A DNA stretch of 64,000 nucleotides from positions 112,592,001 through 112,656,000 of the forward strand of contig OZ024743.1 in NCBI GenBank assembly GCA_964016885.1. Reading direction: 5' to 3'. Position 1 is the first letter of the stretch; each line of letters begins with the position of its first letter. The DNA comes from Eledone cirrhosa (Eukaryota). The position numbers and the translations under genes are program-made. Shown piece after piece: positions 42,715-44,067 of the stretch. The notes under the pieces were generated by a model that was not told the DNA's origin, did not search any database, and saw only the letters and a program-made list of their open reading frames with translations.

Positions 42715-42810
42715 ACCACGACGACAGAGCTCAGGCCGTTTCGACGGCTATTTCTGGACTAAATTAGAATTTTTAGCGTGGTAATAAATAGCTGAACTTT
42801 TCAAGGGGTA
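42715..42810 (-). ncRNA. Type-I hammerhead with U3-A8 core, family B (inverted copy 43853-43948, +)
   Basis: tacccc-TTGAAAA-gttcagctattt...aaatagccgtc-GAAA-cggc ctgagctct gtcg-TC-gtggt; other copies restore stem I as ggggt. Confidence 0.7.
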
Positions 42811-42880
42811 ATTCCTTATATGGGAAGGTTGTAGTTGTCAAAAGGATTGGTCAAAATTTCTTGTAAACACAATTAAATCT

Positions 42881-43557
42881 AGCCTGCGCATCGGCCTTTC
42901 CCTGAGGCTCGGCCGCCGGATCTGCCAGCCACACCAATGTCGCTGCGGTTCCACCGTGGGCTCTTTCGGCCTCCACCCGCTTTCCTGTCGCCACAGTGCC
43001 GGCCGCATTCCGCGCGCCATGCTACCCTCTACGAGGTCATTAAGCGTGGCTCGGACGCTGCGGGCTTCCCTTCCCAGCTCGAGCCGGTGGGGCTGGATCG
43101 AGGGGACGGCAAAAGGCCAGATGGCATGACCATCTTCCCGTTCCGCGGTGGCAAACCCCTCGTCTGGGATGCCACTTGCAGCGACACTTTCTGCAGTCGC
43201 AACCTGGTGCAGTCTGCGAATGACCCAGGTTCTGCTGCATATCGGGCTGAGGGCGCCAAACTCCTCAAACACCGGTCGCGCTCCGACAGTTTTCGGTCGT
43301 ACCCCTGGCAGTGGAGACTTCTGGTGTCCTCGGCCCCAGGGCTACCTCCTTACTCACCACCATAGGCGATGAGCTGGCGAGCTGTAGGTGTGAGCCCCGC
43401 GAGTTGGAGTGGCTCTTCCAGTGCGTCTCCCTCGCCGTGCTCCTGGGAAACCCCTCTCCATTATGTCCGCCGGGGCTGTGGGTTGTAGTTGTTGTAGAAG
43501 AAACGGGAGCTAAATTGTATAGTGATATTAATGTTAGTTTGCCAACAGTTAGTATTT
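42881..43557 (+). mobile_element. 5'-truncated CRE-clade non-LTR retrotransposon (zinc finger and restriction-like endonuclease), 12-bp target duplication
   Basis: [73 protein letters not shown] at 42869-42880 and 43558-43569. Confidence 0.85.
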
Positions 43558-44067
43558 ACAATTAAATCTTTCATGGCGATGGGTGGGGCGTCGGGGTGGC
43601 TGAACCTGCCTGTAGAACAATGAGGGAGCCGGTCAAGCGTTTTCCTAACTAGCCTAATTTCATACACACTCCTTAGAATTTGCTGTATAGAATTCACTTT
43701 TAACGCTTGACCGGCTCCACCCACTCCCTCATTGTTCTACAGGCAAGTTAAGTCACCCCCACCACTCACCCACCACCATGAAAGATTTAATTCTGTTTAC
43801 AAGAAATTTTGACCAATCCTTTTGACAACCACCATCTTCCCATATAAGGAATTACCTCTTGAAAGGTTCGGCTATTTATTACCACGCTAAACATTCTAAT
43901 TTAGTCCAGAAATAGCCGTCGAAACAGCTTGAGCTTTGCCGTCGGGGTTAAACATTTTCCTATATATAATCCTTGCTCTCTTTGCTCTCCTTTTCTCATT
44001 GCTCTCCTTTCTCTCCTTATATATATAGGAGGGAGTTATAGTTCACTTGAAGCATTGTGTAATGAGG

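What the first reader, a model, noticed from the sequence alone, without database searches (positions are those of the whole stretch)
42715..43948. Family B: multicopy hammerhead with a non-canonical UUGAAAA core (U3-A8), long stem II and palindromic loop III
Seen: consensus acccc-TTGAAAA-gttcggctattt(about 30 nt)aaatagccgtc-GAAA-cggc ttgagctct gccg-TC-ggggt, built from copies at 13677-13774, 42715-42810 and 43853-43948. Each copy has a different defect. The 3' half recurs about 10 times in the window. Known: positions 3 and 8 form a tertiary Watson-Crick pair, and U3-A8 is a rare functional variant of C3-G8. Standard CUGANGA searches miss it. The GAGCTC palindrome in loop III could allow dimer formation (inference). 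A high-copy mobile family fixed for this core would be unusual.
Basis: partly seen in the sequence, partly recalled or inferred. Interest (0 to 1): 0.8.

Follow-up and report, generated by a model that had tools for sequence, protein, structure and literature searches.

The report
Jumping-gene hammerhead with genomic cut footprint
This is a hammerhead ribozyme motif with the rare U3-A8 core at the end of a very abundant Penelope-like jumping gene, and hundreds of small genomic copies stop exactly at its predicted cut site, which likely records self-cleavage inside the animal's cells.

Summary
The motif is real. It is a type I hammerhead in the terminal repeat (pLTR) of a Hydra-clade Penelope-like retrotransposon; an intact pLTR-ORF(719 aa)-pLTR unit was found elsewhere in the genome. 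The copies at 42715 (minus strand) and 43853 are two arms of one inverted insertion, and all three window copies are decayed. The core is not fixed as UUGAAAA. Exact genome-wide counts: U3-A8 with any base at position 7, 4,310; mismatched C3·A8, 1,052; G8, 53. U3-A8 in Penelope hammerheads is in print (about 1,300 in Schistosoma), and this scan noted it twice before on other DNA. What looks new: (1) in about 200 tiny fold-back insertions of the youngest family, arms end sharply at the predicted scissile bond (68 of 100 arms listed), likely a footprint of cleavage in vivo; (2) most other insertions end at an initiator-like hexamer inside loop II, likely the transcription start; (3) the master lineage went U3-A8 to C3·A8 and back while still multiplying. 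Cleavage was not assayed, no RNA data were available, and dimer formation is untested. New variant of a known kind.

The parts
43854..43948 (+). Hammerhead copy, right arm (U3 at 43859, A8 at 43864, position 9 mutated to G at 43865, G15.3 mutated); decayed
42715..42809 (-). Hammerhead copy, left arm (U3 at 42804; core intact; mismatches in stems I and II); predicted cut between 42720 and 42719
13677..13774 (+). Hammerhead copy of a sister subfamily (lesion at 11.1/G12), right arm of a separate fold-back insertion 13516-13788
43943..43944 (+). Predicted scissile bond (after C17; +41/+42 from the loop II A). In tiny fold-backs genome-wide, arm ends pile up at the equivalent of 43944
   Evidence: (hand tallies)
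43901..43906 (+). Initiator-like hexamer in loop II (A at 43903 = +1), where most insertions of the family end; likely transcription start (inferred)
   Evidence: initiator consensus recalled
43639..43963 (+). Right arm: 3' UTR and pLTR of the Hydra-clade element, ending at the short end about 20 nt after the cut, followed by TA repeats
42622..42880 (-). Left (inverted, 5'-truncated) arm with the 80-nt tail (long end about 100 nt after the cut), next to (TA)n
43570..43638 (-). Remainder of the left arm beyond the nested insertion; inversion junction near 43638
   Evidence: I3
42881..43569 (+). Nested 689-bp fragment of another retroelement with a 12-bp target duplication (42869-42880 and 43558-43569); its broken ORF resembles a restriction-like endonuclease of CRE-type elements (label recalled from motifs; Pfam gave no hit)
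26813..27034 (.). Mini fold-back of the same family lacking the 5' core; one arm ends at -1
63054..63243 (.). Mini fold-back of the older family C; both arms end at -1
63690..63991 (.). Two further 3'-half/tail arms lacking the 5' core

Best explanation
The motif is a type I hammerhead ribozyme in the terminal repeat of a high-copy Hydra-clade Penelope-like retrotransposon, and it likely self-cleaves after GUC in vivo in a minority of transcripts. Shown: it lies on the sense strand 0.6-1.3 kb after the endonuclease gene and, in the tandem unit, 190 nt before the start codon; insertions are head-to-head pairs in (TA)n with one short and one long 3' end; 5' ends pile up at two fixed places, +1/+2 in loop II and +42, the scissile bond. 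Inferred: two reverse-transcription starts, about 20 and 100 nt past the cut, copy the RNA until its 5' end. That end is usually a capped start at an initiator inside loop II, so the 5' repeat of such an RNA holds only the 3' half of the ribozyme. Less often it is the end left by ribozyme cleavage. The 3·8 pair is likely under weak selection: U-A is preferred, but C·A and U·G masters also multiplied.
For: Parent: intact unit L227, ORF 3580-5739, 3,118 nt between hammerheads; 2,054 relatives at E<=0.001, best about 40-54% identical; Hydra motifs present. Core pattern: U4, G5, A6, A9, G12-A14, A15-U16 and C17 are constant across subfamilies while position 7 takes A, C, G or U, as a hammerhead predicts. 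Fold: hammerhead is the minimum-energy fold for 6 of 12 subfamily consensuses and within 0.3-3.1 kcal for the other 6; 90.6% of cells pair, with 3 double changes in stem II. Cut footprint: family F, first 50 of 203 loci, 68 of 100 arms end at +42, against 7 at +43, 1 at +41 and 3 at +40; without the 13 zero-insert loci 42 of 74, usually with 1-3 untemplated A/T (hand tally; p about 1e-24 against 1/11). Two of 30 copies that run on into the 5' UTR start at +41/+42. Loop II end: in 800 kb of unselected DNA, 38 of 45 arms end between -5 and +15, 16 of them at -1 to +2; 1 ends at -14, none from -15 to -34, and 6 run on past 120 nt. The mode is the same in family C, whose loop II differs except for the hexamer. 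16 of 16 simple inverted pairs have one short and one long end, as in the two-start model of PMC11167929. Core history: endonuclease-DNA tree of 42 copies, congruent with a UTR tree of 116 copies.
Against: No cleavage assay and no RNA data. Covariation is weak: all 3 double changes separate family C from the rest, and the covariation score is reached by 17 of 500 shuffles. A reverse-transcriptase pause at the foot of stem III could also end copies near +41/+42. The family contrast does not settle it. Cut-site junctions are rarer in C3·A8-rich tails relative to loop-III junctions (11 of 60 against 22 of 51, p=0.006), but loop-III junctions may accumulate with age; per full-core copy the gap is small (roughly 0.04 against 0.06-0.09, rough hand estimate); and those tails mix a C3·A8 and a U3-A8 subfamily that were not sorted apart. 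At least 1,052 copies come from masters with a mismatched 3·8 pair, so efficient cleavage may not be needed, as found in vitro for the anole element. In younger families an alternative fold is up to 2.7 kcal more stable. The initiator label is recalled; no extra cap-derived G could be shown. 19 of 30 copies with the 5' UTR extend far upstream of +1, so longer templates exist.
Confidence: 0.7

Rival explanations
1. The hammerhead is a relic that no longer cleaves. The structure is kept as a protein-binding or promoter scaffold, and both pile-ups are reverse-transcriptase stalls (foot of stem III, and an inner hairpin of loop II).
For: Masters with C3·A8 and U3·G8 spread. Cleavage was dispensable for insertion in vitro and no cut-site RNA ends were seen for the anole element. 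In B-type families an inner hairpin starts near +3.
Against: The peak is at +42, not +41, although C17 is unpaired and would be copied before a stall. Junctions carry untemplated bases typical of run-off. In family C1 the +1 site is predicted single-stranded, yet ends pile there too. Catalytic bases stay invariant while position 7 drifts, and the 3·8 pair returns to U-A.
Confidence: 0.17
2. It works mainly as an obligate dimer through the loop III palindrome, as minimal Penelope hammerheads do.
For: The palindrome is kept in every subfamily including family C. Dimer cleavage is reported for minimal Penelope hammerheads. Insertions come as paired arms.
Against: Stem III has 5-6 pairs and forms in one molecule, unlike the 1-2 pairs of dimer-dependent forms. 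Not tested here.
Confidence: 0.2
3. In the C3 subfamilies the core is shifted rather than mismatched: C3 pairs with the G at position 7 (a core one base short plus an extra A), so these ribozymes stay active.
For: C3 occurs almost only with G at position 7. Penelope hammerheads commonly carry an extra base after position 9.
Against: The link may be simple descent, since U3 with G7 is the commonest young core. D-type tails show 0 of 6 cut-site junctions. No literature test of such a core was found.
Confidence: 0.12
4. A chance look-alike inside a MITE or fold-back DNA transposon.
For: Most copies are small inverted repeats in (TA)n. No hammerhead family appears among the 150 Rfam matches shown of 351.
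Against: The arms are 3' ends of an RT/GIY-YIG element with an intact tandem unit. Junctions differ between copies. The +42 peak falls on the predicted bond.
Confidence: 0.02

Closest known systems
Hydra-clade Penelope-like elements and their hammerheads (Craig et al. 2021, PMC8557442; seen: abstract, passages, section 11, supplement parts 1-2 and search hits)
   Same: C-terminal GIY-YIG ORF of about 720 aa with the clade's motifs; (TA)n targets; inverted 5'-truncated partner; tail at one end; type I hammerhead near the 3' end. By eye the ORF follows Hydra-1_Obim motif by motif.
   Different: Every Hydra hammerhead row in File S2 has a C3-G8 core, stem II of 3-7 pairs, a short loop II and a 0-3 nt loop III. 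Here: U3-A8, stem II of 6-11 pairs, loop II of about 30 nt, a 7-9 nt loop III, a distal stem I helix, a 0.6-1.2 kb 3' UTR and an 80-nt tail.
U3-A8 minimal hammerheads of Cercyon Penelope-like elements, Schistosoma mansoni (Cervera and De la Pena 2014, PMC4209133; seen: parts 1-2 of 4)
   Same: U3-A8 core, high copy number (about 1,300), longer stem II, inverted pairs.
   Different: Those lack stem III and need dimers. This one has a self-standing stem III, belongs to another clade, and comes with a series of 3·8 states.
Poseidon PAc of the green anole (Frangieh et al. 2024, PMC11167929; seen: passages and part 2 of the main text)
   Same: Two internal reverse-transcription starts that define short and tailed ends; hammerhead in the pLTR; AT-rich targets.
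   Different: There, single 3/8 mutants were dead, cleavage was not needed in vitro, and no ends at the cut site were seen in RNA data. Here genomic copies end at the cut site.
Natural U3-A8 hammerheads (Perreault et al. 2011, PMC3088659; seen: passages)
   Same: Natural covariation of positions 3 and 8, stated to be active in vitro.
   Different: Scattered examples, not a dated series of subfamilies within one lineage.
Internal promoter of Drosophila virilis Penelope (Schostak et al. 2008, PMC2377424; seen: passages)
   Same: Internal Inr/DPE-type promoter in the pLTR.
   Different: There the start lies upstream of an intron and of the ribozyme. Here it is inferred to lie inside loop II, splitting the ribozyme.

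Membership tests
Type I hammerhead ribozyme | Three helices around the core, ends in stem I | tested here: met
Type I hammerhead ribozyme | Invariant U4 G5 A6, A9, G12 A13 A14, A15-U16, H17; free position 7 | tested here: met
   (subfamily level; the window copies are decayed)
Type I hammerhead ribozyme | Watson-Crick pair between positions 3 and 8 | tested here: inconclusive
   U-A in 4,310 exact copies; C·A in 1,052; G8 in 53, of which 8 C-G
Type I hammerhead ribozyme | Tertiary contact between stems I and II | not tested
   A distal stem I with an internal loop is predicted; no contact was identified
Type I hammerhead ribozyme | Self-cleavage 3' of H17 | not testable with these tools
   Indirect support only: insertion ends peak at that bond
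Penelope-like element | Single RT + GIY-YIG ORF between pLTRs; tandem and inverted insertions; tail at one end | tested here: met
   Pfam GIY-YIG only at E 0.026 on the C-terminal fragment, none on the whole protein
Hydra clade | RWK and DKT motifs | tested here: met
   DKT exact; RWR in place of RWK
Hydra clade | CxCX5C linker; CxxC and CxH around the conserved E and N; no CCHH | tested here: met
   read
Hydra clade | (TA)n insertion preference | tested here: met
Hydra clade | Placement in an RT phylogeny with named Hydra elements | not tested
   reference sequences seen only as text
Hydra clade | Canonical CUGANGA hammerhead (descriptive in the paper, not diagnostic) | tested here: not met
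   this is the variant feature
Minimal dimer-dependent Penelope hammerhead | Stem III absent or 1-2 pairs | tested here: not met
   5-6 pairs
Non-LTR retrozyme (non-autonomous tandem array) | Short tandem units without an ORF | tested here: not met
   autonomous 3.1-kb unit; small copies are fold-backs, not arrays

The most novel reading that the evidence does not exclude
The element starts its RNA inside its own ribozyme. The long stem II and free-standing stem III let the complete 3' copy lend its catalytic strand to the half-ribozyme at the RNA's 5' end, a natural two-piece hammerhead that removes the capped leader. The genome holds a dated in vivo activity series of natural U3-A8, C3·A8 and U3·G8 cores, readable from the share of insertions that end at the cut.
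Probability: 0.25. Interest if true: 0.8.

Novelty: new variant of a known kind. Interest (0 to 1): 0.58.

Why it matters
Whether Penelope hammerheads cut in vivo, and what for, is open: Craig 2021 calls their function unclear, and Frangieh 2024 found no cut-site ends and no need for cleavage in vitro. Insertions that end on the scissile bond would be a DNA-level record of cleavage. The same tally can be run on any genome with Penelope-like elements. The family also supplies natural, dated variants of the 3·8 pair in one scaffold, so a short set of cleavage assays can show how much ribozyme activity a successful retrotransposon needs. An estimated 170,000 arms (95% range 123,000-225,000) and 22,000 full cores (8,000-49,000) in this genome are missed by canonical descriptors.

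Tried and rejected
Rfam scan: no hammerhead family among the 150 matches shown of 351; 201 not seen. First descriptor script printed nothing because of a bug; fixed. No RNA holder listed, so nothing on expression. Contig depth (3' half about 20 times the 5' core; C at position 3 in 24% of depth, partly a longer C run; no variant at A8 at 5% or more) agrees with the counts but may come from the same study, so it is not counted as independent. First endonuclease tree was rejected because its outgroup ORF belonged to a separate, neighbouring Hydra family. First subfamily sort mixed families; redone. Ungapped scan of tail arms for a +42 peak was uninformative, since most apparent hits were indel artefacts. 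Cap-derived G test: G 5, C 2 with inserts, too few. Searches for a more distant family with the same architecture among flanking Hydra ORFs found none; some of those families have short canonical-type or other motifs. PDB search: no match. Papers not held: Lunse 2017, Przybilski and Hammann 2007, Nelson and Uhlenbeck 2008; rates for C3·A8 and U3·G8 are therefore not cited. Literature searches for an earlier report of cut-site insertion ends or of such a Hydra variant listed none, but most subscription journals and bioRxiv supplements are not covered, and the supplementary figures of PMC4209133 and PMC11167929 were not read. The sort of 40 fetched junction loci into the C3·A8 and U3-A8 subfamilies was not done, so the family contrast stays open. 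The host species was not identified.

Full report
Observation. The three stretches are as described, with corrections. 42715-42810 is on the minus strand and is the inverted partner of 43853-43948 (181-nt arms, 92%). Between them sits a 689-bp foreign fragment with a 12-bp target duplication; without it the locus is one head-to-head insertion in (TA)n. 13677 is a sister subfamily. Each window copy is damaged and fails a strict descriptor, while near-consensus copies elsewhere pass it and fold as hammerheads. Shuffled windows gave 0-1 hits.

Parent element. The window lies in a 3.0-Gb genome. Longer copies extend upstream into RT and GIY-YIG coding sequence. L227 holds an intact unit: hammerhead, tail, 5' UTR, a 719-codon ORF, 3' UTR, second hammerhead, 3,118 nt apart, with an inverted partner. 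The protein has DKT, RWR for RWK, a CxCX5C linker, CxxC and CxH around the conserved E and N, and no CCHH. These are the features given for the Hydra clade (PMC8557442 section 11), and by eye it follows Hydra-1_Obim. No phylogeny with named elements was run. All Hydra hammerheads listed in that paper's File S2 are short and canonical.

Core variants. A core-blind pattern gave 5,955 exact matches. U3-A8 with any base at 7: 4,310 (slightly looser 5' anchor). C3·A8: 1,052. G8: 53, of which 8 are canonical and look sporadic, and about 17 form a small U3·G8 subfamily. Position 7 takes all four bases while the catalytic bases are constant. An older family C also has U3-A8 and differs by compensatory changes in stem II. 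Covariation is weak as a statistic (17 of 500 shuffles reach the score). The hammerhead is the minimum-energy fold for 6 of 12 consensuses and within 3.1 kcal for the rest.

History. A tree of endonuclease DNA from 42 copies, rooted on one family-C copy, is a ladder: U3·G8, then the window's U3-A8 subfamily, then two C3·A8 subfamilies (about 0.08 substitutions per site of trunk), then the youngest U3-A8 subfamilies, nested inside the C3 group (supports 99-100 at the key nodes; 89 and 97 at the base). A UTR tree of 116 of 171 copies agrees, and divergence from consensus falls from about 8.5% in C to about 1% in the youngest (biased low by exact-match selection). So masters with a mismatched pair multiplied, and the pair later returned to U-A. 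U3-A8 itself is in print for Penelope-like elements (PMC4209133) and other natural hammerheads (PMC3088659). Two earlier notes of this scan report it in other genomes (not checked).

Insertion ends. 16 of 16 simple inverted pairs have one short end (about 20 nt past the cut) and one tailed end (about 100 nt), as expected from two internal RT starts (PMC11167929). In 800 kb taken at fixed coordinates there are 45 arms, 23 short and 22 long, 6 with a full core. That extrapolates to about 170,000 arms and 22,000 cores. Numbering from the A of a conserved hexamer in loop II, 38 of 45 arms end between -5 and +15, 16 of them at -1 to +2; one ends at -14; none from -15 to -34 (a few ends near +15 are indel artefacts). 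79 mini fold-backs, partly selected by pattern, show the same mode in families B and C (some B copies were mis-binned as C). Of 30 copies that continue into the 5' UTR (28 reach the start codon), 5 start at about +1 to +6, 2 at +41/+42, 4 further downstream and 19 far upstream. The hexamer matches the initiator consensus (recalled), and D. virilis Penelope has an internal Inr/DPE promoter in its pLTR (PMC2377424). I infer run-off at a capped 5' end in loop II.

Cut footprint. The predicted bond is +41/+42. A junction search found 1,076 strand matches. In the first 100 rows (55 loci), 22 have both arms ending at +42 and about 24 are joined through the loop III palindrome (hand tally). A control anchored further downstream (family F, 203 loci, first 50) gave arm ends +42: 68, +43: 7, +44: 2, +45: 3, +46: 2, +48: 10, +49: 2, +41: 1, +40: 3, +39: 2 (hand tally; the pattern limits how far upstream both arms can reach). 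Thirteen zero-insert loci could be 2-nt microhomology; without them 42 of 74 arms still end at +42, mostly with 1-3 untemplated A/T. The simplest reading is run-off at a ribozyme-cut end. A stall at stem III is the rival. Tails rich in C3·A8 show fewer such junctions relative to loop-III junctions (11 of 60, D-type 0 of 6, against 22 of 51; p=0.006). This is not decisive: age may inflate the loop-III class, the gap per full-core copy is small, and those tails mix two subfamilies that were not sorted apart.

Verdict. It works like a type I hammerhead and meets every membership feature that could be tested, except that the 3·8 pair is mismatched in part of the family. The host element meets the Hydra-clade motif tests. 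The core variant is known; the architecture, the likely start site inside loop II, the cut footprint and the dated mismatch series were not found in my searches. Cleavage, promoter activity and dimer formation are untested.

Noticed in passing
window 44068-44485: Near-perfect 196-nt inverted repeat (99%) in (TA)n, another fold-back element. Its arm near 44330-44370 has a minimal hammerhead-like layout with C at position 4; the fold is not better than shuffles (z 0.61).
   Followed up: partly
window 42881-43569; 18406-18494; L210 near 800-1000: Fragments of a second retroelement whose broken ORF resembles a restriction-like endonuclease of CRE-type elements (recalled). Atlas hits are unnamed eukaryotic clusters.
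   Followed up: partly
L246 about 1150-2900 (minus) and L215 2641-3950: A different Hydra family (about 35-41% identical protein) with a short canonical C3-G8 hammerhead after its ORF, so canonical and variant forms coexist in this genome.
   Followed up: partly
L090/L091, L133, L210: A closer Hydra family (about 49% identical endonuclease region) whose 3' end shows a hammerhead-like GAAA half but no standard core.
   Followed up: no
L101 and L199: Two related copies with G3, A8 and A10.1, possibly a tiny subfamily with a broken core.
   Followed up: no
G000:C3:214146637-214147752: Five copies of the tail/5' UTR junction spaced about 273 nt apart, a small tandem array derived from the element, reminiscent of retrozymes.
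   Followed up: no
L294 6782-6811 and 8531-8560: Two mini fold-backs within 2 kb share the same +2/+2 junction, and a third lies at 9284-9308.
   Followed up: no
window 59945-60126: Fold-back of another abundant short repeat around (TA)n, which gives spurious microRNA-family hits in Rfam.
   Followed up: no
subfamilies D, E, E2, F1: An alternative fold pairing the start of stem II with loop III competes with the hammerhead by 0.3-2.7 kcal; it is lost again in the youngest subfamilies F2 and G.
   Followed up: partly
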